Assembly (NCBI GenBank): GCA_045804965.1
Contig: JBJMMD010000010.1
Span: 46,378 to 110,377, forward strand
From: Thermomicrobiales bacterium
GTDB taxonomy: Bacteria > Chloroflexota > Chloroflexia > Thermomicrobiales > UBA6265
Length of the DNA stretch: 64,000 nt
Direction of reading: 5' to 3'
Below the pieces are notes generated by a model. It worked only from the letters and a program-made list of their open reading frames with translations. It was not told where the DNA came from and searched no databases. Positions 10,353 to 17,419 of the stretch are shown in pieces. A program made the position numbers and the translations under genes. Numbering within the stretch: position 1 is the stretch's first letter; the number at the start of each line of letters is the position of its first letter.

Positions 10353-11687
10353 TTAGGACGTCGGTGTGCCCTCCGACGGGCTGGTCTTCATCCCCTCCTG
10401 CCACGCCGCCTGCAACTCAGCCGCGACTTGTTCGGGCGTTTTTTGGCCGGAGATGATCGCTTGGAAGCCATTGGTCATCGCGTCGTTGAACTGCGGCGGA
10501 GCGAGCACGTCGACGTTGTAGCCGAATTTCGTCTTCGCGTTCGGACCGATTCCGGTCTGCAACACGTCGAGGATCGACTTGTAGAGTGGTGAAACATTCA
10601 GGCTGGTCGTGTCGAGCTGGACCGGGACGAAGAAGTGCGCTTCCTCAGTCCAGCGCTTGACGATGTCGGGCGAGAAGAGGTAGTCGAGGAGCTGTCCGGC
10701 TTCAGTCTGGTGCTGGCTCTTGGCCGAAATGTAGTACGCCGAGCCGACCCCGGAGATCCAATACTGCCCCTTCGCCCCATCAATTGTCGGAAATGGGGTG
10801 AACTGGACATCCTGCCCTTCCATGTTCGTCTGAATGTCGTTAATGAGCCAACTCCCCGTCGTGTTCAATATTGACTGCCCCGAGAAGAAGAGGGAGTTGC
10901 CGTCGTCGTACATCAGCGCGTTCACATCTTTGGTGTAGCAGCCGGCATCCTTGAGGTCGACGAAGTAGGTCTTGATCGCCTTCACGATCTCGGGCGTGTT
11001 CCAATTGCCTTTGCTTTGATAGAGCAGCGCCTTCATCGCGTCGGGGCCGATCATGTCGTTGGCCGCCATCGAGAATTGGTGAAAGGCCTGCCAGCCGGGA
11101 TTGTCACTGAAAGCGATCGGCGGATCGTAGCCCTTGTCCTTCGCCTGGCCGCAGAGCGTCTTCAGGTCGTCAACCGTTTTGGGGGCTTGCCAGCCCTCTT
11201 TATCGAGCAGAGTGTTGTTGTAATACATCCCAATCAGGTCGACCTGCAGCGGCAATCCGTAGATCTTCCCGTTCAGCGAGGTCGCTTCGAGGGACTGGCC
11301 GGCGATCTTGTCCTTCCAGCCGTACTGGTCCGCCATCTGATCCAGTGGCGACAGCAATCCCGCATTCGCGAGCACGCCCGCATACCCTGGACCGGCATCG
11401 TAGAAGATGATGTCGGGACCGGTGCCGGAGGCGAGGGCGGTATTCACCGTTTGCCGCATCTGATCGCTCGAGACCACCTCTCGCTTGATCGTGATGTTCG
11501 GATGCTGGTCGGTAAACGATTTGTAGATAGCATCGGCCGCTTTGCTCGAAGTCTCTTCCGTGAATTGGTCCCAGATCCGCAGCTCGACCTTCTGGTCCTG
11601 AGCGCGACCAATACTCGGCACGGCGCCGAGGACAAGCAGCATCGTGACGAGCATAACGGGAATAGACCAACGGTGGGATCGTAACAC
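10353..11687 (-). CDS. ABC transporter extracellular solute-binding protein (family 1, sugar type)
   Basis: Signal/anchor MLVTMLLVLGAVPSIGRAQ followed by a typical SBP body. Start set to GTG 11687 behind a G-rich RBS (GGGGGAG); the track ORF runs to 11786. Confidence 0.85.
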   Translation of the reverse strand: MLRSHRWSIPVMLVTMLLVLGAVPSIGRAQDQKVELRIWDQFTEETSSKAADAIYKSFTDQHPNITIKREVVSSDQMRQTVNTALASGTGPDIIFYDAGPGYAGVLANAGLLSPLDQMADQYGWKDKIAGQSLEATSLNGKIYGLPLQVDLIGMYYNNTLLDKEGWQAPKTVDDLKTLCGQAKDKGYDPPIAFSDNPGWQAFHQFSMAANDMIGPDAMKALLYQSKGNWNTPEIVKAIKTYFVDLKDAGCYTKDVNALMYDDGNSLFFSGQSILNTTGSWLINDIQTNMEGQDVQFTPFPTIDGAKGQYWISGVGSAYYISAKSQHQTEAGQLLDYLFSPDIVKRWTEEAHFFVPVQLDTTSLNVSPLYKSILDVLQTGIGPNAKTKFGYNVDVLAPPQFNDAMTNGFQAIISGQKTPEQVAAELQAAWQEGMKTSPSEGTPTS

Positions 11688-11756
11688 AATCTCCCCCTCT
11701 CCCCGGCGCAGAGGGCCAGGCAGTCGGCGAACGACGTGGTCGGATATGTCATCGAT

Positions 11757-11770
11757 GACAGAGCGGGATC
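11757..11770. promoter_or_regulatory. candidate LacI-family operator (perfect 14-bp palindrome TGTCATCGATGACA)
   Basis: Perfect palindrome about 70 nt upstream of the SBP gene start. It fits the LacI-family TGnnAnCGnTnnCA operator pattern. The cognate LacI gene sits in the same gene string. Confidence 0.45.
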
Positions 11771-11869
11771 GTAGCACCGCGCACAATTTCGGTCAAGATG
11801 TTTGGTTACACCCGGGAATCAGGTGAATCCCGCGCTCACCGGGTTCAACGAGCCACCCCTCGACCATTG

Positions 11870-13369
11870 CTAACTCCAAACAGAAGCCATCGCCGAGCGA
11901 AATAGTGGGCTCTGACAAAGGCAGCCCGATTCTGATGGCGTCGTCGTGATGCGGTTGATCTCTCTCCGCTCGGGACGCCAGAATTGGAATCGGAAGGTGT
12001 TGTGCATCTCTGTCAGCATCGCTTCTGCCTCAGTCACGCCTCGCTTGAGGTACTCGGCCGCCAAGAGAACACCGGCCAGTGTTGAGACGAAGCCGACCGA
12101 CCATTCGGCGTCTTCGGCGACGTCGGCAAAACGTTGGAGGGTGGTACCCGAGATCGTCCCGCAATGGGTGACCGGGTCGATCAAGTAAGTATCAAGCGCA
12201 GCAGGCTCAACTCCGTGCGCTGCTGCCTTCTTCGCGCGTTCGCTTGATTCGAGATGGCGAAGCCCCTCAATCACGCTCGCATCAGGCAGCACCGCCTCGG
12301 GGCGGTTGCGACACCGCAGGCAGGGGCCGCCGGCTAACACGTCGTAGAGGTTCACCTGCGCCCGCATTTCGTTGGTCGAGGCACCCAACACAAGCCGCGG
12401 CAGCGCGTCCTGGATCGCGTGTCGAGAGCGGTTGCGGTCCACGGCCGAAATGACCAAATCAAGTCGCGGGGTGCCCTGGAACGCGTACCAATCGTCGAAT
12501 GACGCAGTGACCGGTTGGACGATGATGCTGCGTCCGGTGAACGCATGAGCGGCGGTCGACGCTTTGAGTGTCCCTAGCTGATTAAGACCAAACAAGACGC
12601 ATCGGTTGAGGTTGCTATCCGTTATTCCTTCTTTATCGTGGTCGAGCAGTATGAGCGAAGTAGTGACTTGAGGAAGGGCGTAGAGCACCTGGAACAGACC
12701 GTTTGCCACAGCGCCGGCGCCGACGATCACGGCCGAAGGTGGTATTGCGGCAGGTCGAGGCCCCTCACTTTCTGGAGGGGATGAAGAGACACGAAGGGTC
12801 AGTGCGTCCAACCAAACGTTTTGGGCGCTGCTGGTACTCTCCGGTCGACTCGACCGGATGAACTTGAAGACCTCGCCGGCGGTCAGGCACGCCGCCAGAT
12901 ATGCGCCAATCGGATTATCACTACTTCCCAGCTCACCGGTGATCTCGCTCCCAACATGACCTGCCCAGCCGATCGCCGTCGTCACTAATGCCAGATCGCC
13001 GTTGCCGATAGGACCGGGGCCGATTCGGATGCTGATACGTGTTCGCGGTCGGTCAGACCGCGACAGAACCGCAGGGTTGACCCGCTCGATTCCCGAGCGC
13101 AAACAGTCCGATAAGTCCGCGCAATCGCTCGGCATCAAAGGGCTCAAATGTCGAATCGGCGTTACGCCGGTTGGTATATCGAACTCGATGGTTCCGACTT
13201 CCTCGGTCTGCCGCGCAAGCAGGTTCACGAGCATCCAGGCCAGGTGCTGGCCCACCGTGGTGCCGGACGTAACTGCGTCAAGCGAGATGGTCACGCGCGC
13301 AAGACCGTGTTGCTCTGACAGGCGCCCACCCAGGGTTCCGCGATGCCGTTGAGCGATGTCAACACCCAC
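11870..13369 (-). CDS. bilD: E1-like ubiquitin-activating/ThiF-family adenylyltransferase (BilD-like)
   Basis: Rossmann/adenylation motifs VIVGAGAVANG...LILLDHDKEGITDSNLNRC, AVDRNRSR and GASTNEMRAQV. Cys pairs CLRC and CLC, plus Cys in THCGT. Start set to GTG 13369 (GAGGAAG 6 nt upstream), overlapping the JAB stop by 11 nt; the track ORF runs to 13603. Confidence 0.8.
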   Translation of the reverse strand: MGVDIAQRHRGTLGGRLSEQHGLARVTISLDAVTSGTTVGQHLAWMLVNLLARQTEEVGTIEFDIPTGVTPIRHLSPLMPSDCADLSDCLRSGIERVNPAVLSRSDRPRTRISIRIGPGPIGNGDLALVTTAIGWAGHVGSEITGELGSSDNPIGAYLAACLTAGEVFKFIRSSRPESTSSAQNVWLDALTLRVSSSPPESEGPRPAAIPPSAVIVGAGAVANGLFQVLYALPQVTTSLILLDHDKEGITDSNLNRCVLFGLNQLGTLKASTAAHAFTGRSIIVQPVTASFDDWYAFQGTPRLDLVISAVDRNRSRHAIQDALPRLVLGASTNEMRAQVNLYDVLAGGPCLRCRNRPEAVLPDASVIEGLRHLESSERAKKAAAHGVEPAALDTYLIDPVTHCGTISGTTLQRFADVAEDAEWSVGFVSTLAGVLLAAEYLKRGVTEAEAMLTEMHNTFRFQFWRPERREINRITTTPSESGCLCQSPLFRSAMASVWS

Positions 13370-13931
13370 GGGGTTCTTCCTCTGTCGCCATTTCCCATCG
13401 GAAATCGGCGAACCCGTCGATGATTTGGATTCGCTGAGCAACCTGCGGGTGGTCGAGCCGCTCCCACCGCCCACCGCGGCGCTCGTGCACCCCGATACCG
13501 GCCAACTCGTAATCCAACCCAGCCCCATAGTGCGGCCAGACGAAGGACAGCGCTCCCTCACGGGTACTGTAGGCGTTCTCATCGTCGTAGTAGGAGTGAT
13601 CAACCCCGGAGGAGGGATGGGTGTGCACTTGCGCCAGATTGGTTAGCCCTTGGCGACGCATGTCGGCCGCCAACCGGTGCAGCGACTCTGGAATGACCTG
13701 GTAGTAGCCCCGAGACTGCCGCAGTTGTGGCGCGGCCACCGTCGTCACTACTTGCAGTCCCTGACAAGTGACGCCGAACCAGAAACAGACCGCTTCGACC
13801 TTGGCGCGTCGGTACGGTTGGAAGAACTGGTGCGTGTCGCAAATAACGCTGCGCGGAAGAATGACTCTCCGAACTGGGGACGCAGTGGACGGGCTGTTAC
13901 TTGGTACAGGTGGTCGGTCCCGTGTCGTCAT
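13359..13931 (-). CDS. bilC: JAB/JAMM (MPN+) metalloprotease, deubiquitinase-like (BilC-like)
   Basis: Complete JAMM signature: the upstream Glu in KVEAVCFWFG, and HTHPSSGVDHSYYD, which matches HxHx7Sx2D. Its ATG overlaps the E2 stop (ATGA). Confidence 0.85.
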   Translation of the reverse strand: MTTRDRPPVPSNSPSTASPVRRVILPRSVICDTHQFFQPYRRAKVEAVCFWFGVTCQGLQVVTTVAAPQLRQSRGYYQVIPESLHRLAADMRRQGLTNLAQVHTHPSSGVDHSYYDDENAYSTREGALSFVWPHYGAGLDYELAGIGVHERRGGRWERLDHPQVAQRIQIIDGFADFRWEMATEEEPRGC

Positions 13932-14458
13932 TGACCCTGCCTCGCGTATCGCCCCTGAAAATGCTCGGAATTGAGCGCCTTATAGACCGTGTAGATGCAA
14001 GTACCCAAGGTGTGCTTATCTACACGCCATAGCTGATCGACCGTCGGGCTGTGACCGCTAAAGTAATAACCCAAGCTCATTGAACTGCAGACGAGTTGGG
14101 GGGCGAAAGGATAAGACTCAGGAAAACCTGTGTAGTTGGGGTGAACGGCGCAGTAGGGAGCCTGCAACTGTGGCAGGTGGTGCATGTCGCGCTCAAGGTC
14201 GTACTCCAGCGTATCTGGATTGACGAAGCGGACGTCCGGCGGATGGGCTGGATAGTATCCGCAGTTAAGGCGCAGGGTGAACCGGTCGCGCTCACCGGCG
14301 AAGTAGCGCGCCGGCACGACCGCGATCACGGTCAAGGGACCGTGTCGGCGCAGCTCCCAACCGTAGGCGGCCCCGCGTCGATGCCAGCCCGAGGACTGGA
14401 TGAAGCCATCCACCGCCGCCTCGGCCAGCGCTGGGTGGACCCGGGATGGCAGGTCCAC
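13928..14458 (-). CDS. bilB: E2-like ubiquitin-conjugating (UBC-fold) protein (BilB-like)
   Basis: HPN motif followed by a Cys: AVHPNYTGFPESYPFAPQLVCSSMSLGYY. Upstream PPDVRFVNP-type segment. The GTG start shares 1 nt with the Ubl stop (TAGTG). Confidence 0.75.
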   Translation of the reverse strand: MDLPSRVHPALAEAAVDGFIQSSGWHRRGAAYGWELRRHGPLTVIAVVPARYFAGERDRFTLRLNCGYYPAHPPDVRFVNPDTLEYDLERDMHHLPQLQAPYCAVHPNYTGFPESYPFAPQLVCSSMSLGYYFSGHSPTVDQLWRVDKHTLGTCIYTVYKALNSEHFQGRYARQGQ

Positions 14459-14766
14459 TAAGCGCCCCCCGGTACCACGTCAATGTCGAACTCAAATTCC
14501 AGCTTGCCGTGGTCGCCGGTGACACAGATCCCCTGCGCGGCGAGCGCATGCAGGGAGGAGCCTAAGTGAGGCGTCAAATCGACGCGCGGCTCGGCGTGGC
14601 AGAAGTACTGGTCGCCATCGCGGCGCTGCTCGCCCAACCTGTGGTAGGCCTCGTCGACTACTGCCTGGACCGTACTCTCGGTTTCAGCGTTAAACCGCTT
14701 GTCTTCCGCCGTAGAAGTGTAAAACGCGGTTACGTGGACTTTTCGGTGTTCCTGTTCCTGACTCAT
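14458..14766 (-). CDS. bilA: ubiquitin-like protein, single beta-grasp size, C-terminal GG followed by one Ala (BilA-like pro-form)
   Basis: 102 aa ending ...FEFDIDVVPGGA. First gene of the Ubl-E2-JAB-E1 string. ATG 14766 has GGGAGA 7 nt upstream. Confidence 0.7.
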   Translation of the reverse strand: MSQEQEHRKVHVTAFYTSTAEDKRFNAETESTVQAVVDEAYHRLGEQRRDGDQYFCHAEPRVDLTPHLGSSLHALAAQGICVTGDHGKLEFEFDIDVVPGGA

Positions 14767-14826
14767 GGCGGTGTCTCCCTAGCCGATCTCGCTCGATCAT
14801 TGTGCGCTTCAATGGTGCGCAACTGC

Positions 14827-14856
14827 ACTCTAGCAGCAAGCGCATGGGGATGTCAA
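14827..14856 (-). promoter_or_regulatory. candidate sigma70-type promoter of the Ubl-E2-JAB-E1 operon
   Basis: On the minus strand: TTGACA (14856-14851), an 18-nt spacer, then TAGAGT (14832-14827). This lies about 60 nt upstream of the Ubl ATG. Confidence 0.45.
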
Positions 14857-14868
14857 GCAAGCGCTTGC
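14857..14868. promoter_or_regulatory. candidate operator: perfect 12-bp palindrome GCAAGCGCTTGC
   Basis: It abuts the minus-strand -35 and overlaps the plus-strand -35. The half-site recurs: AGCAAGCGC at 14835-14843 and 14856-14864, and GCGCTT at 14804-14809. Confidence 0.45.
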
Positions 14869-14893
14869 AAACTCCAAGCGATCAGGATATAGT
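14865..14893 (+). promoter_or_regulatory. candidate sigma70-type promoter of the HTH/metallopeptidase pair
   Basis: TTGCAA (14865-14870), a 17-nt spacer, then TATAGT (14888-14893). RBS GGAGGAGG at 14910-14917 and ATG at 14924. Confidence 0.5.
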
Positions 14894-14923
14894 GTCAACC
14901 GAACCAGTTGGAGGAGGAATCCC

Positions 14924-15307
14924 ATGACGACCCCGCAGCCGGCAAGGGACTCAGAGATCGGCAAGCAATTGGAGCAGACGCGCAAAAGCCTGAATTGGTC
15001 GCTACGCGATGCGCAGCGTGAATCCGGAGTGTCAAATAGCTACATCAGCCAGATTGAACGGGGGGACGTTGACCCATCCCCAGAAGTGTTGCGGCGCCTC
15101 GGCCAAGCCTACGGAGTGCCATTCGAAGTCCTGATGGAGGCCGCTGGTTACCTTATCAAGCGCACGGAACTTAAGGAGTCAGGCAAAGTCCCGGCGTTCG
15201 TCTTTAGCGCGGCTGAAAAAATGGACGAGCGCGATTGGGAAGCCGCCCAGGCGTTTTTCCAAACGCTCCTCAAGATCCGTAAGAAGGATGGAGACCAGAC
15301 ACCATGA
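14924..15307 (+). CDS. XRE-family helix-turn-helix transcriptional regulator (CapH/ImmR/DdrO-like repressor candidate)
   Basis: HTH_XRE core SLRDAQRESGVSNSYISQIERGDVDPSPEVLRRLGQAYGV, with a roughly 50-aa C-terminal tail. Strong RBS. Confidence 0.85.
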   Translation: MTTPQPARDSEIGKQLEQTRKSLNWSLRDAQRESGVSNSYISQIERGDVDPSPEVLRRLGQAYGVPFEVLMEAAGYLIKRTELKESGKVPAFVFSAAEKMDERDWEAAQAFFQTLLKIRKKDGDQTP

Positions 15308-15325
15308 GCGACTCGGGGTAAGCGG

Positions 15326-16159
15326 ATGTCACTGCTGACCACCGACTCCTCGACGGTGCAGGAGGGCGCCTTGCTCTTCCTTGCCCACCTCGGTATCGCC
15401 GAGCCGCCGATTACTGTGGAGCGGGTGCTTGAAGGGCTCGGCGTCGAGTCTCACCCTTTGCCGACCTTTGACATCGACCGGCTGACTCCCGAGCAACTCA
15501 AGCACTATCACGCGCTCAAGCCCGTACGCGGCCTGCTCAGTCCGGCCGAGCAGCGCATCTACTTCAGCGACGAACTCTCCACCAGGCAATATCCATGGCT
15601 CATCTATCACGAATCCGGGCATGTCCTGATCGATTGGCATCGGGAAGCTCTCTATGTGGACAATGACTACCGTCTCAGTCAGCGGGCGATTGACCAAATG
15701 GAGAAGGAGGCCAACGAATTCGCGGGGCATTTGCAGTTCTTAGGGACTCGATTCGCCGACGAGTCGCGTTCCATGCCATTCGGGCTCGGCACGGCGGTGG
15801 ACCTAGCTGACCTCTTCGTTGCCACCTACGAGTCAGCAATCCGTCACTACGTTGAGACGCGCGAGGAGAATTGCATCTGTCTTGTGTGTCGCGTCATTCC
15901 AGCGGCAGAAGGAGCACGCACACTCCGCTTCCAGTACTTCATCAAGCCGAAGCCATCGCGCGGTTTCTGGAACTTTGAGTTCAAATCCGGGCACGTATTC
16001 CCCCTCGACGACGAGGTGGTGCAGTTGCTCAACCAGGGTGTACTGGATGGGGCCTCACCACACAACGGTACCTACTACAGCCAAGATTCTAAGCAGGCCT
16101 ATCAACGCCAGGTGTTTTGCAACGGTCACAGCGTCTTCGTCTTGGTTAGCACCATCTGA
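15326..16159 (+). CDS. ImmA/IrrE-family zinc metallopeptidase (CapP-like)
   Basis: HExxH in LIYHESGHVLIDWH, and downstream MEKEANEFAGHLQF (the E..AN.FA motif of the ImmA/IrrE family). It starts 19 nt after the HTH gene. Confidence 0.8.
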   Translation: MSLLTTDSSTVQEGALLFLAHLGIAEPPITVERVLEGLGVESHPLPTFDIDRLTPEQLKHYHALKPVRGLLSPAEQRIYFSDELSTRQYPWLIYHESGHVLIDWHREALYVDNDYRLSQRAIDQMEKEANEFAGHLQFLGTRFADESRSMPFGLGTAVDLADLFVATYESAIRHYVETREENCICLVCRVIPAAEGARTLRFQYFIKPKPSRGFWNFEFKSGHVFPLDDEVVQLLNQGVLDGASPHNGTYYSQDSKQAYQRQVFCNGHSVFVLVSTI

Positions 16160-16665
16160 GATTTTCGAACGCCTCCGAGACGCTGGTGAACTTTGAGGAT
16201 TTAGTTGAAGTCTTCAGACGAGACGGCTGCGATACCGTGTCCATAGATGCCCAGGACCAGCGCAATGCTCCGCTTACTTCGCCACAGTTGCGAATCAACA
16301 GACGGGACCAAGAAGAGGGTGTCTCCTTCGAGCGCATTGGTGAACCATTGCGGCCCACGCTTGTACGGCAAGACTCTGTCAGCCAGGCCATGATCGAATA
16401 TGTCTCTTCTCCAATTCGACGGTTCGGGCCGTCACACCCCGCTCACACGTGACAGTCTAGACGTGCAATACAGCCCCGCTCTTGTGGCTCGCCTTCTCGG
16501 CGGTGAACGGATTCTGCCACGCCGTCGAGTCAATCCCCGACTTACGCCCGTTCACCAATTCGCGTACGATCCGTGATCGCCGCCCAGGAGAAGCCGTCGC
16601 CATTGAAGCCGGGGGCCGGCGCCAAACCGAGCAGCGAACGCCGCCTCGCCGCGGCTGGAGTGGTC

Positions 16666-16679
16666 AGAATATTTGTTCT
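16666..16679. promoter_or_regulatory. SOS-box-like (Cheo-type GAAC-N4-GTTC) site AGAATATTTGTTCT, adjoining a TATAAT -10
   Basis: One mismatch to the AGAAC-N4-GTTCT palindrome. TATAAT lies at 16679-16684, about 45 nt upstream of the SRAP ATG. Confidence 0.35.
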
Positions 16680-16726
16680 ATAATTCTCTCGGAAATCCCT
16701 GCGCCGTCAGGGATCAGGAGGACGCT

Positions 16727-17419
16727 ATGTGCGGTCGGTACAGCCTCGAACACCTCACTGAGCTCTCGGAACGTTTCCGGGCGCGGCAGGTCCATCTGGA
16801 CTTGCCCGCTACCTACAACATCGCCCCCTCCCTGGAGTTGCCGGTCGTCGTCGAAGATGAGCACGGGGAGCGGGTCTTGCGATTGATGCAGTGGGGCCTG
16901 CAACGCGGCGGGCAGCTCGGAGGGGTGGCCCCGATCAATGCCCGGGCCGAGTCGGTGGCCGACAAGCCGATGTTCCGTGACCTGATTCGACACCGGAGGT
17001 GTCTGGTCCCGGCTTCCGGCTTCTATCTCTGGCAGCAGGTGGGGCTGCGCAAGCAACCCTACTTCGCGACGGTCAAAGACCAGGCGCTGTTCGCCTTCGC
17101 CGGGCTGTTCGACGAGATCGACCAAGGCGAGTGCCCTCCGCTCGCCTCGTACGTCGTGCTGACCACTCGCGCCAATGCGCGCGTAGCCGAGATCCAGGAC
17201 CGGATGCCAGTGATCATGCGGTCGGAGGCCGAAGGGCGCTGGCTCTCGCGGCAGATCACCGATATTGAGGACATCCAGCCGGTAATGGCGCCGTTGGGCT
17301 CGGACGAGGTCGTTATCTATCCAGTGGCGACCGCCGTGAATGACGCGCACCACGATGGGCCGGAGCTGATCCGGCCGCAGGAATCGAAGCAGCTGCGACT
17401 GGCCCGGCGGGCCAGTTGA
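16727..17419 (+). CDS. SOS response-associated peptidase (SRAP/YedK-type abasic-site processing protein)
   Basis: The trimmed protein starts MCGRYSL, the invariant Cys2 N-terminus of SRAP. AGGAGG RBS 6 nt upstream of ATG 16727. Confidence 0.9.
   Translation: MCGRYSLEHLTELSERFRARQVHLDLPATYNIAPSLELPVVVEDEHGERVLRLMQWGLQRGGQLGGVAPINARAESVADKPMFRDLIRHRRCLVPASGFYLWQQVGLRKQPYFATVKDQALFAFAGLFDEIDQGECPPLASYVVLTTRANARVAEIQDRMPVIMRSEAEGRWLSRQITDIEDIQPVMAPLGSDEVVIYPVATAVNDAHHDGPELIRPQESKQLRLARRAS

What the first reader, a model, noticed from the sequence alone, without database searches (positions are those of the whole stretch)
14767..14923. Back-to-back divergent promoters sharing a perfect palindromic operator in the 157-bp gap
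Seen:
- Plus strand: TTGCAA (14865-14870), 17 nt, TATAGT (14888-14893), then RBS GGAGGAGG and ATG 14924 of the HTH gene.
- Minus strand: TTGACA (14856-14851), 18 nt, TAGAGT (14832-14827), upstream of the Ubl gene.
- A perfect 12-bp palindrome GCAAGCGCTTGC (14857-14868) abuts the minus -35 and overlaps the plus -35.
- Its half-site recurs: the direct repeat AGCAAGCGC at 14835-14843 and 14856-14864 (spaced 21 bp, two helical turns; the first copy sits inside the minus-promoter spacer), and GCGCTT at 14804-14809.

Inference: one dimeric XRE-type repressor could shut both promoters at once, giving auto-repression plus operon repression.
Basis: partly seen in the sequence, partly recalled or inferred. 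Interest (0 to 1): 0.65.

Follow-up and report, generated by a model that had tools for sequence, protein, structure and literature searches.

The report
CapH/CapP switch controlling a Bil operon
The 157-bp gap holds two back-to-back promoters that share a conserved repressor-binding site, and it is an ordinary new example of the already described CapH/CapP DNA-damage switch controlling a bacterial ubiquitin-like (Bil) anti-phage operon.

Summary
In a 5.1-kb scan, two of the three sigma-70-like promoters fall inside the gap.

The 12-bp perfect palindrome alone is weak evidence: the window holds 36 of them, giving about an 8% chance in 157 bp. It is also not the conserved unit. In 15 independent homologous loci (16 with L050), where CapH is 64-91% identical and the flanks have diverged to random, the conserved dyad is CAAGCR-NN-YGCTTG. 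It overlaps the TTG of both -35 boxes. A weaker copy with the same geometry (14817-14828) covers the start site of the leftward promoter, and conserved RAGC half-sites lie 21 bp away.

The motif travels with the regulator genes whatever the cargo: Bil in most loci, CBASS in two.

The genes are capH (XRE helix-turn-helix) and capP (M78 peptidase with the IrrE/PprI/CapP fold), divergent from bilABCD. Published work already describes this arrangement.

Most likely mechanism: CapH dimers or tetramers repress both promoters, and ssDNA-activated CapP cleaves CapH to induce them. Binding, start sites and cleavage are untested.

Verdict: a new member of a known kind, of modest interest.

The parts
14854..14867 (.). 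O1, the main operator: CAAGCAAGCGCTTG, matching the consensus CAAGCR-NN-YGCTTG. The left arm overlaps the - strand -35 box and the right arm overlaps the + strand -35 box.
   Evidence: The arms are invariant or nearly so in 15 loci: pairwise identity 0.95, against 0.39 for the spacer and 0.26-0.32 for the flanks. There are no indels between the arms. The exact motif occurs once per locus in 17 loci, always upstream of capH, and only once in the window.
14857..14868 (.). It is specific to this window and arises from the O1 right arm plus a spacer that copies the left arm.
   Evidence: Present here but absent as such at this position in the homologous loci, where the spacer varies. The window holds 36 palindromes of this length.
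14817..14828 (.). O2, a weaker dyad with the same geometry as O1: GCGCA-AC-TGCAC, consensus rmGCA-NN-yGCAT. It overlaps the last base of the - strand -10 box and the predicted start site of the Bil promoter.
   Evidence: G14819, C14820, A14821, G14825, C14826 and A14827 are invariant in 15 loci. Arm identity is 0.84. Its role as an operator is inferred.
14838..14842 (.). Conserved half-site B (AAGCG) inside the spacer of the - strand promoter. It lies 21 bp from the left arm of O2.
   Evidence: Consensus mr.GCr, identity 0.62 against about 0.3 background. CAAGC/GCTTG is the most enriched 5-mer across the loci: 49 observed against 10 expected, z = 13.
14876..14880 (.). Conserved half-site D (AAGCG) inside the spacer of the + strand promoter. 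It lies 21 bp from the left arm of O1.
   Evidence: Consensus mA.GCr, identity 0.62.
14803..14807 (.). Conserved reverse-orientation half-site (TGCGC, consensus yGCky), 21 bp from the right arm of O2.
   Evidence: G14804 and C14805 are invariant; identity 0.70. It also forms an inverted repeat with the left arm of O2.
14851..14856 (-). -35 box TTGACA of the Bil (cargo) promoter.
   Evidence: Promoter scan. TTGAC is invariant in 16 loci.
14827..14832 (-). -10 box TAGAGT of the Bil promoter, with an 18-nt spacer. The start site is predicted near 14820.
   Evidence: Promoter scan. TAnnnT is kept in 15 of 16 loci with a 17-18 nt spacer. The start site is inferred, not mapped.
14865..14870 (+). -35 box TTGCAA of the capH-capP promoter. 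It is a weak box, and only its TTG is conserved, which is the part that belongs to the operator arm.
   Evidence: Promoter scan. TTG is kept in 14 of 16 loci. The last three bases have identity 0.37.
14888..14893 (+). -10 box TATAGT of the capH-capP promoter, with a 17-nt spacer. The start site is predicted near 14900.
   Evidence: Promoter scan. T14888 is invariant, and A14889 and T14893 are kept in at least 90% of loci. TAnnnT is kept in 15 of 16 loci.
14910..14917 (+). Ribosome-binding site GGAGGAGG of capH.
   Evidence: Read directly from the sequence.
14924..15307 (+). capH: a 127-aa XRE-family HTH repressor with a C-terminal two-helix region.
   Evidence: Pfam HTH_3 3e-15. PADLOC capH 8.7e-12, covering profile positions 7-100 of 103. 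The recognition helix is invariant across 44 homologs. The AF2 model has five HTH helices, a linker and two helices. Foldseek matches DdrO and the E. coli CapH N-terminal domain 7t5u.
15326..16159 (+). capP: a 277-aa M78/IrrE-family Zn-metallopeptidase with a GAF-like C-terminal domain. It has no cysteine-switch loop.
   Evidence: Pfam Peptidase_M78 4e-5. PADLOC capP 1.4e-11. H95, E96, H99, E126 and E128 are conserved. The AF2 model has pLDDT 83. Full-length Foldseek hits: PprI/IrrE at 5e-12 and Thauera CapP 7t5t at 1e-6.
14458..14766 (-). bilA-like ubiquitin-like protein of 102 aa, ending in PGGA.
   Evidence: First gene of the divergent operon. The C-terminal GGA is invariant in 8 homologs. 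It has no Pfam or PADLOC hit of its own.
13928..14458 (-). bilB-like E2.
   Evidence: PADLOC BilB 2.6e-4, a weak hit. Homologs carry Pfam BilB-like.
13359..13931 (-). bilC-like JAB deubiquitinase.
   Evidence: PADLOC BilC 2.3e-11. Pfam Prok-JAB 1e-4.
11870..13369 (-). bilD-like E1. The mechanical ORF runs on to 13603, but homology begins at about 13369.
   Evidence: PADLOC BilD 3.1e-20. Pfam ThiF. The alignment to the 501-aa homolog starts at residue 81 of the ORF.

Best explanation
The gap is the control region of a CapH/CapP-regulated Bil (bacterial ISG15-like ubiquitination) defence operon.

Two sigma-70-type promoters fire in opposite directions, with their -35 boxes only 8 bp apart. A dimer of CapH, the 127-aa XRE repressor, is inferred to bind the symmetric site CAAGCR-NN-YGCTTG at 14854-14867. 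Each arm of that site contains the TTG of one -35 box, so one bound dimer blocks RNA polymerase at both promoters.

A second, weaker dyad of the same geometry (14817-14828) sits on the -10/start region of the Bil promoter. Conserved half-sites flank the dyads at 21 bp. The cargo promoter is therefore probably repressed more tightly, possibly by cooperating dimers or a tetramer, than the regulator's own promoter.

Induction is inferred to follow the published CapH/CapP mechanism. Single-stranded DNA produced by DNA damage or phage infection activates the CapP metallopeptidase. CapP cuts CapH in its C-terminal dimerisation region, CapH falls off the DNA, and bilABCD and capH-capP are transcribed.

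Shown here: the sequence elements, their conservation and linkage to capH, and the family and fold of the proteins.

Inferred: binding, repression rather than activation, start sites, cleavage, and the ssDNA signal.
For: Promoters:
- Both were found by the mechanical scan.
- Their diagnostic bases are conserved in 15-16 loci whose flanks have diverged to random (identity 0.26-0.32). These bases are TTGAC, and TAnnnT at a 17-18 nt spacing on each strand.

Operator:
- The O1 arms have identity 0.95, while the 4-nt centre has 0.39.
- The first central base is always a purine and the last always a pyrimidine. Both half-sites therefore read CAAGCR, the symmetry expected for a dimer.
- The GC just outside each -35 hexamer is invariant. 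The last three bases of the + strand -35 box are not conserved (0.37). The constraint is therefore more than the promoter itself.
- CAAGC/GCTTG is the most enriched 5-mer: 49 against 10 expected, z = 13.
- The exact motif occurs once per locus in 17 loci, always upstream of capH, and once in the 64-kb window.
- The same motif and layout accompany capH-capP next to different cargo: Bil in most loci, type III CBASS in L048, and a SAVED/SMODS CBASS in L040. This ties it to the regulator rather than to the cargo.
- The CapH recognition helix (SNSYISQIERG) is invariant across the clade.

Proteins:
- PADLOC hits: capH 8.7e-12, capP 1.4e-11, BilC 2.3e-11, BilD 3.1e-20.
- The CapP model matches IrrE/PprI and Thauera CapP over its full length.

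Literature:
- E. coli CapH represses its divergent CBASS promoter by binding a conserved site next to the -35 box. Dimerisation is required and tetramerisation increases affinity. CapP cleaves CapH when ssDNA is present (bioRxiv 10.1101/2022.04.27.489752; 10.64898/2026.05.16.725639).
- 15% of Bil operons carry a divergent capH-capP pair sharing the promoter region (PMC10557695).
Against: - No experiment exists for this locus or this clade. Start sites, binding, direction of regulation and cleavage are all inferred.
- The sequence link to characterised CapH/CapP is distant. CapP has no PDB hit by sequence search. The CapH N-terminal domain is 32% identical to E. coli CapH, and its fold is generic XRE.
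- The CapP here lacks the cysteine-switch loop of the studied enzymes.
- The centre of O1 lies at about -40 relative to both predicted start sites. That position is also used by class II activators, and the capH -35 box is weak.
- One CapH homolog (74% identical; L008/L039) shows no operator in the 162 nt available upstream.
- Two loci have a mismatched right arm: L010 and L044.
Confidence: 0.8

Rival explanations
1. The perfect 12-bp palindrome GCAAGCGCTTGC (14857-14868, centre 14862/63) is the operator, and its 9-bp direct repeat 21 bp upstream is a second copy of the site.
For: The palindrome and the repeat exist. AGCAAGCGC occurs only at these two places in 64 kb. The N0-spaced form AAGCGCTT also appears at other sites in some homologs (L007, L038, L044).
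Against: In the 15 aligned homologous loci the bases 14859-14862 vary (identity 0.39), while C14854-C14858 and G14863-G14867 are fixed. The conserved dyad axis is therefore 2 bp to the left. The second copy of the direct repeat starts in that variable spacer. Perfect 12-bp palindromes are common here, with 36 in the window.
Confidence: 0.07
2. There is no operator. The conserved block is simply two strong promoter -35 elements placed back to back, and the symmetry is a by-product of TTGAC facing TTG.
For: Both arms contain the TTG of a -35 hexamer. TTGAC on the - strand is what a good -35 box needs.
Against: - The GC 5' of each hexamer is invariant, although sigma-70 does not read it.
- The + strand hexamer is conserved only in the part shared with the arm (last three bases 0.37).
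- The purine/pyrimidine symmetry holds at the inner positions.
- The spacing between arms never changes.
- The same 5-mer recurs at conserved positions elsewhere in the region.
Confidence: 0.05
3. CapH bound at O1 represses the Bil promoter but activates its own promoter, as lambda cI does at OR2/PRM. The region would then be a bistable-type switch rather than a doubly repressed one.
For: - O1 is centred about 39.5 bp upstream of the predicted capH start, a class II activator position.
- The capH -35 box is weak in all loci, with 3-4 of 6 matches.
- The extra full dyad O2 lies only on the Bil side.
Against: - In the characterised E. coli system, loss of CapH function raises expression, and no activation has been reported.
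- Conserved half-site D lies inside the spacer of the capH promoter, which is more typical of repression.
- The start sites are only predicted.
Confidence: 0.1
4. The HTH/peptidase pair is an ImmR/ImmA-type regulator of a mobile element, or a toxin-antitoxin-like pair. The conserved site would then control element functions, and the Bil operon would be only a neighbour.
For: The closest long relative (L050) lies among integrase, ArdC, ParA, primase and TIR genes. L039 and L048 have integrases next to capP. CapP also hits RmrA-type models weakly.
Against: The pair is directly divergent from a defence operon in at least 13 independent loci with different surroundings, and sits co-directionally upstream of a CBASS operon in a further locus (L040). 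The conserved block includes the promoter that reads into that operon. ImmR/ImmA and CapH/CapP are mechanistically the same kind of switch, so this rival mainly changes the name of the regulated cargo.
Confidence: 0.03

Closest known systems
CapH/CapP of the E. coli MS115-1 type III CBASS system (Lau et al. 2022, bioRxiv 10.1101/2022.04.27.489752; Calloji et al. 2026, 10.64898/2026.05.16.725639)
   Same: - An XRE HTH repressor plus an M78/IrrE-like peptidase, encoded upstream of and divergent from a defence operon with a shared promoter region.
- A conserved repressor site adjacent to the -35 box.
- Repressor architecture of an HTH domain plus a C-terminal helical dimerisation region.
- A peptidase with the IrrE/CapP three-domain fold.
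   Different: - The cargo is Bil, not CBASS.
- The proteins are distant: no sequence-level PDB hit for CapP, and 32% identity for the CapH HTH domain.
- This CapP has no cysteine-switch loop.
- The operator is defined here as CAAGCR-NN-YGCTTG overlapping both -35 boxes, with a second dyad on the cargo start site. The E. coli site is described only as a 22-bp conserved region upstream of the -35 box.
- Binding and cleavage are untested here.
Bil (CEHH/6C) operons with divergent capH-capP (Chambers et al. 2023, PMC10557695; Hör et al. 2023, bioRxiv 10.1101/2023.09.04.556158)
   Same: The gene order is bilA-bilB-bilC-bilD, with capH-capP upstream on the opposite strand. This is exactly the arrangement reported for 25 of 162 Bil operons.
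   Different: The host is a Thermomicrobiales MAG. No operator or promoter anatomy was described for the Bil-associated regulators in the passages read. The Ubl here ends in PGGA.
DdrO/IrrE (PprI) of Deinococcus
   Same: An XRE repressor is cleaved in its C-terminal region by a GAF-containing M78 peptidase that senses ssDNA. The best structural matches of the CapP model are PprI/IrrE, and DdrO matches the CapH model over its full length.
   Different: DdrO controls a dispersed regulon through a palindromic motif upstream of many repair genes (established knowledge). Here the operator occurs once in 64 kb and only next to capH in every locus, so this is a local, cassette-borne switch.
Lambda-type divergent switch (cI at OR controlling PR/PRM) and R-M controller (C) proteins
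   Same: A small HTH dimer binds symmetric sites placed between or over two divergent promoters, with several sites of graded strength. C.BclI, C.AhdI and P22 c2 are among the structural matches of the HTH domain.
   Different: - Inactivation is by a dedicated partner peptidase rather than by RecA-stimulated self-cleavage.
- There is no antagonist repressor such as Cro.
- The direction of autoregulation is unknown.

Membership tests
CapH/CapP regulatory module | CapH has an N-terminal XRE-family helix-turn-helix domain. | tested here: met
   Pfam HTH_3 3.1e-15. PADLOC capH 8.7e-12. The AF2 HTH domain has pLDDT above 90. Foldseek matches the E. coli CapH N-terminal domain 7t5u at rmsd 1.6 Å and 32% identity. 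The fold is generic to XRE proteins.
CapH/CapP regulatory module | CapH has a C-terminal two-helix dimerisation domain that contains the CapP cleavage site. | tested here: inconclusive
   The AF2 monomer shows a disordered linker (residues 80-88) followed by helices 92-97 and 102-123 at low confidence. The PADLOC capH profile is matched through position 100 of 103. The motif PAFVFSAA (residues 90-97) is nearly invariant and is a candidate cleavage region. Neither dimerisation nor cleavage can be tested here.
CapH/CapP regulatory module | CapP is a Zn-metallopeptidase (HExxH, M78) with a helical domain and a GAF domain, as in IrrE. | tested here: met
   Pfam Peptidase_M78 scores 23.8 bits against a cut-off of 22. 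PADLOC capP 1.4e-11. H95, E96, H99, E126 and E128 are conserved. The model has pLDDT 83. Full-length matches: 8sln/3dti (PprI/IrrE) at E 5e-12 and TM 0.6-0.69, and 7t5t (CapP) at E 1e-6.
CapH/CapP regulatory module | capH-capP are adjacent, upstream of the defence operon and on the opposite strand, sharing a promoter region. | tested here: met
   Window gene map. The same layout is found in L033, L034, L037, L038, L041, L044, L048 and L050.
CapH/CapP regulatory module | CapH binds a conserved site in the shared promoter region and represses transcription. | not testable with these tools
   A conserved symmetric site linked to capH is demonstrated. Physical binding and repression need EMSA or footprinting and reporter assays.
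CapH/CapP regulatory module | [quoted passage not shown] | not testable with these tools
   Known only for E. coli and Thauera proteins.
CapH/CapP regulatory module | Cysteine-switch loop in CapP. This is present in only 33% of CBASS-associated CapP proteins, so it is not strictly defining. | tested here: not met
   There is no cysteine between HESGH (residues 95-99) and MEKEANEF (residues 125-132) in the window protein or in most homologs.
Bil (BilABCD) ubiquitin-like conjugation defence system | Four genes in the order Ubl, E2, JAB deubiquitinase, E1. | tested here: met
   ORF order on the - strand. PADLOC hits: BilB 2.6e-4 (weak), BilC 2.3e-11, BilD 3.1e-20. Homologs carry Pfam BilB-like and BilD_N.
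Bil (BilABCD) ubiquitin-like conjugation defence system | The Ubl has a ubiquitin-like fold and a C-terminal glycine for conjugation. | tested here: inconclusive
   No family hit for the 102-aa protein. The C-terminal GGA is invariant in 8 homologs, which suggests a di-Gly exposed after trimming. The fold was not modelled.
DdrO/IrrE radiation-desiccation response regulon | The repressor motif is present upstream of many dispersed DNA-repair genes, forming a regulon. | tested here: not met
   CAAGCNNNNGCTTG has one exact match in the 64-kb window. Matches with one mismatch are no more frequent than in shuffles: 4 against 2.6. In the other loci the motif is found only next to capH. Only 64 kb of this genome was available.

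The most novel reading that the evidence does not exclude
The roughly 90-bp block at 14803-14893 is a portable, self-contained regulatory cassette that moves together with capH-capP between unrelated defence cargos (Bil, two kinds of CBASS, small unknown genes).

It carries a graded array: one strong dyad on both -35 boxes, one weak dyad on the cargo start site, and phased half-sites at 21 bp. A CapH tetramer or higher oligomer would occupy this array cooperatively.

The result would be very tight, switch-like repression of the toxic cargo with looser, possibly even positive, control of the regulator's own promoter.
Probability: 0.3. Interest if true: 0.45.

Novelty: new member of a known kind. 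Interest (0 to 1): 0.3.

Why it matters
It gives a concrete operator for a clade of CapH repressors found in Thermomicrobiales and Actinobacteria-type metagenomes: CAAGCR-NN-YGCTTG, plus a second dyad on the cargo start site. This is testable at base-pair level.

It also shows that the operator and both promoters travel with capH-capP as a unit between Bil and CBASS cargos. That is useful for annotating defence islands, for predicting which operons are induced by DNA damage, and for designing reporter or EMSA experiments.

It does not change the current picture of how these switches work.

Tried and rejected
- **The 12-bp perfect palindrome as the unit.** Rejected. It is not conserved, and the dyad axis is 2 bp to the left.
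- **A regular array of five dyads every 19 bp** (14803.5, 14822.5, 14841.5, 14860.5, 14879.5). Considered, but the right halves of the alternate sites are present in only 3-8 of 16 loci on my reading of the alignment. I describe them only as conserved half-sites.
- **An RNA or DNA hairpin at the 5' end of the Bil transcript** (site 14803-07 pairing with 14817-21). RNAalifold gives 5 pairs with some two-sided changes. The changes largely follow one clade, and the window leader folds no better than shuffles (z = -1.7). It is left as a side note.
- **Sequence search of CapP against PDB chains.** No hit. Fold comparison was needed.
- **Exact-pattern scan of viral contigs** for the operator plus the Bil promoter and O2. 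No matches.
- **The search for related loci in genome contigs.** It returned only one close relative, and that one lacked upstream sequence. Most useful loci came from the look-up of encoding contigs.
- **SRAP as a regular partner of the island.** Seen only in the window and in L050.
- **Loci L008/L039** (CapH 74% identical) lack the motif in the short upstream stretch available. This remains unexplained.
Full report
**Observation**

- TTGCAA (14865-70), 17 nt, TATAGT (14888-93), then GGAGGAGG (14910-17) and ATG 14924 on the + strand.
- TTGACA (14856-51), 18 nt, TAGAGT (14832-27) on the - strand.
- The palindrome GCAAGCGCTTGC (14857-68).
- AGCAAGCGC at 14835 and 14856.
- GCGCTT at 14804.

A mechanical promoter scan of 11500-16600 finds three sigma-70-like sites against 1.3 expected, and two of them are exactly these. 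The repeat finder recovers the 21-bp direct repeat and the inverted arms.

The palindrome alone is weak. The window contains 36 perfect 12-bp palindromes, so one in a 157-bp gap has about an 8% chance.

**Genes on either side**

On the + strand:
- 14924-15307 is an XRE HTH protein (Pfam HTH_3 3e-15; PADLOC capH 8.7e-12).
- 15326-16159 is an M78 peptidase (Pfam 4e-5; PADLOC capP 1.4e-11).

On the - strand the operon has four genes:
- a 102-aa protein with no family hit;
- a weak BilB-like E2;
- a JAB protein (BilC 2.3e-11);
- a ThiF-type E1 (BilD 3.1e-20).

The listed E1 ORF is over-extended. Homology to a 501-aa BilD starts at residue 81, so the true start is near 13369. The small protein and seven homologs all end in PGGA, which fits a ubiquitin-like protein that needs C-terminal trimming. 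An identical CapH is annotated from a Thermomicrobiales MAG.

**Related loci**

A protein search found 45 CapH relatives at 52-100% identity. Their DNA was fetched. Most loci have the same layout, Ubl-E2-JAB-E1 divergent from capH-capP, with a gap of about 157 bp. Three loci differ:
- A 72%-identical CapH sits divergent from a type III CBASS operon with Trip13-like, Cap8, HORMA, SMODS and 4TM genes (L048).
- A 69%-identical CapH precedes a SAVED/SMODS/E1 CBASS operon on the same strand (L040).
- A 64%-identical CapH faces small unknown genes (L046).

**What is conserved in the gap**

Fifteen non-redundant upstream regions were aligned (A2). The flanks have diverged to random (pairwise identity 0.26-0.32). 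Discrete blocks stand out:
- The - strand promoter has an invariant TTGAC and the T, A and final T of its -10 box.
- The + strand promoter has T14888 invariant, and A14889 and T14893 in at least 90% of loci.
- Spacers are 17-18 nt throughout.

Both promoters are therefore supported by phylogenetic footprinting.

The strongest block is GTCAAGC-N4-GCTTG:
- The arms CAAGC (14854-58) and GCTTG (14863-67) have identity 0.95, and the four central bases 0.39.
- No indels occur between the arms.
- The first central base is always a purine and the last always a pyrimidine. Each half-site therefore reads CAAGCR on its own strand, the symmetry expected of a dimer.
- The invariant GC next to each -35 hexamer is not a sigma-70 contact.
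- The last three bases of the + strand -35 box are not conserved (0.37).

The constraint therefore exceeds what the promoters themselves need. The 12-bp perfect palindrome arises because this genome's spacer happens to be AAGC. L046 has the same spacer, and L040 has the mirror case GCTT.

**Additional sites**

- A second block, rmGCA-NN-yGCAT (14817-28), has the same arm spacing as the main dyad. Six of its bases are invariant and its arm identity is 0.84. It overlaps the last base of the Bil -10 box and the predicted Bil start.
- Conserved RAGC-type half-sites lie at 14838-42 and 14876-80, each 21 bp to the right of a left arm.
- A further half-site lies at 14803-07, 21 bp to the left of a right arm.

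An unbiased k-mer count ranks CAAGC/GCTTG first: 49 occurrences in 15 x 125 bp against 10 expected, z = 13.

**Specificity**

- CAAGCRNNYGCTTG occurs exactly once in each of 17 fetched loci, always upstream of capH, and in none of the loci that hold only distant HTH relatives.
- In the 64-kb window it occurs once. One-mismatch matches are at chance level.
- The motif is present whether the cargo is Bil or CBASS, so it belongs to the regulator rather than the cargo.
- The CapH recognition helix is invariant across the 44 homologs, matching the invariant arms.

**Proteins**

*CapP.* The CapP alignment conserves H95, E96, H99, E126 and E128 and has no cysteine-switch residue. The AlphaFold2 model (pLDDT 83) matches several structures over its full length, and little else:
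- Deinococcus PprI/IrrE (E 5e-12, TM up to 0.69);
- a mycobacterial regulator of the same architecture;
- Thauera CapP 7t5t (E 1e-6).

*CapH.* The CapH model has a confident five-helix HTH domain, a disordered linker and two C-terminal helices. It matches DdrO over its full length and the E. coli CapH N-terminal domain at 1.6 Å, alongside many generic XRE repressors.

**Literature**

- Lau et al. showed that E. coli MS115-1 CapH binds a conserved 22-bp site next to the -35 box of its divergent CBASS promoter and represses it.
- They also showed that dimerisation is required and that tetramerisation raises affinity about tenfold.
- CapP cleaves CapH at F82|R83 only when ssDNA is present, and DNA damage induces the operon.
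- A 2026 preprint adds the ssDNA-groove mechanism.
- Lau et al. already noted CapH/CapP next to ubiquitin-like operons.
- Chambers et al. report capH-capP divergent from bilABCD, 'sharing a common promoter region', in 25 of 162 Bil operons.
- 31% of Bub operons have the same pair.
- Bil systems conjugate the Ubl to phage tail proteins (abstract).

**Mechanism proposed**

CapH dimers occupy the main dyad and block both -35 boxes. Further CapH occupies the weaker dyad over the Bil start, perhaps cooperatively as a tetramer, with the phased half-sites assisting. The cargo would thus be shut more tightly than the regulator. On DNA damage or infection, ssDNA activates CapP, CapH is cut in its C-terminal region and both promoters open. 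The nearly invariant PAFVFSAA (residues 90-97) is a candidate cut region.

- Shown here: the sequence anatomy, the conservation, the linkage to capH, and the protein families and folds.
- Inferred: binding, repression, start sites (about 14820 and 14900), cleavage and the signal.

**Rivals**

- The literal 12-bp palindrome is contradicted by the alignment.
- The 'promoters only' reading is contradicted by the conserved non-promoter bases and the recurrent half-sites.
- Activation of the capH promoter, in the manner of lambda cI, cannot be excluded. The dyad centre is near -40 and the capH -35 box is weak.
- A mobile-element ImmR/ImmA reading is the same kind of switch under another name. It does not fit the constant pairing with defence operons, although the closest long relative does lie in an integrative element.

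**Verdict**

It is a further example of the published CapH/CapP-Bil arrangement. What is new is a precise operator consensus, the second dyad, and evidence that promoters plus operators move with the regulator genes between cargos. Novelty: a new member of a known kind. Interest is modest.

Noticed in passing
window 16673-17419 (+); L050 5871-6455 (-): An SRAP/YedK-like gene (Pfam SRAP 2.9e-58) lies just downstream of capP. In the closest long relative, an SRAP gene lies just downstream of bilD, next to a Y-family polymerase gene. SRAP proteins act on ssDNA lesions, and the switch is thought to sense ssDNA. The association was seen in only these two loci.
   Followed up: partly
window 14458-14766 (-): The ubiquitin-like protein and all seven aligned homologs end in PGGA. 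That is a di-glycine followed by one alanine, which implies C-terminal trimming before conjugation.
   Followed up: partly
window 11870-13603 (-): The mechanical E1 ORF (577 aa) overlaps the JAB gene by 245 nt. Homology to a 501-aa BilD begins at residue 81, so the real start is near 13369, with an 11-nt overlap as in homologs.
   Followed up: yes
window 14803-14821; alignment A3: Site 14803-07 and the left arm of the second dyad form an inverted repeat whose arms change together between loci: GCGC/GCGC, GCTCTC/GAGAGC, GCTTTC/GAAAGC. This could be a 5' stem-loop of the Bil mRNA. The evidence is weak: the changes mostly follow one clade, and the fold z-score is -1.7.
   Followed up: partly
L040 3900-4072: In this locus the CBASS cargo lies downstream of capP on the same strand. 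The divergent promoter (TTGACA / CATAAT) and the second dyad are still present, with no convincing divergent gene. It is either a relic of a cargo swap or a driver of an unannotated transcript.
   Followed up: partly
L008 1-150; L039 1-165: A CapH homolog (74% identical) with a CapP gene and an adjacent integrase shows no CAAGC...GCTTG motif in the 162 nt available before the contig end.
   Followed up: no
L050 10824-20837: The closest long relative of the island (CapP 84% identical) sits beside integrase, TIR-domain, type I R-M specificity, primase-like, ArdC and ParA genes. This suggests the Bil/CapHP island rides on an integrative mobile element. In the window it instead lies between a sugar ABC-transporter operon and SRAP.
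   Followed up: no
window 14859-14862; L046; L040: In 3 of 16 loci the non-conserved centre of the main dyad is itself a copy of an arm: AAGC in the window and L046, GCTT in L040. This creates overlapping, shifted palindromes. About 0.5 such loci are expected given the purine/pyrimidine constraint, so it may hint at a second binding register.
   Followed up: partly
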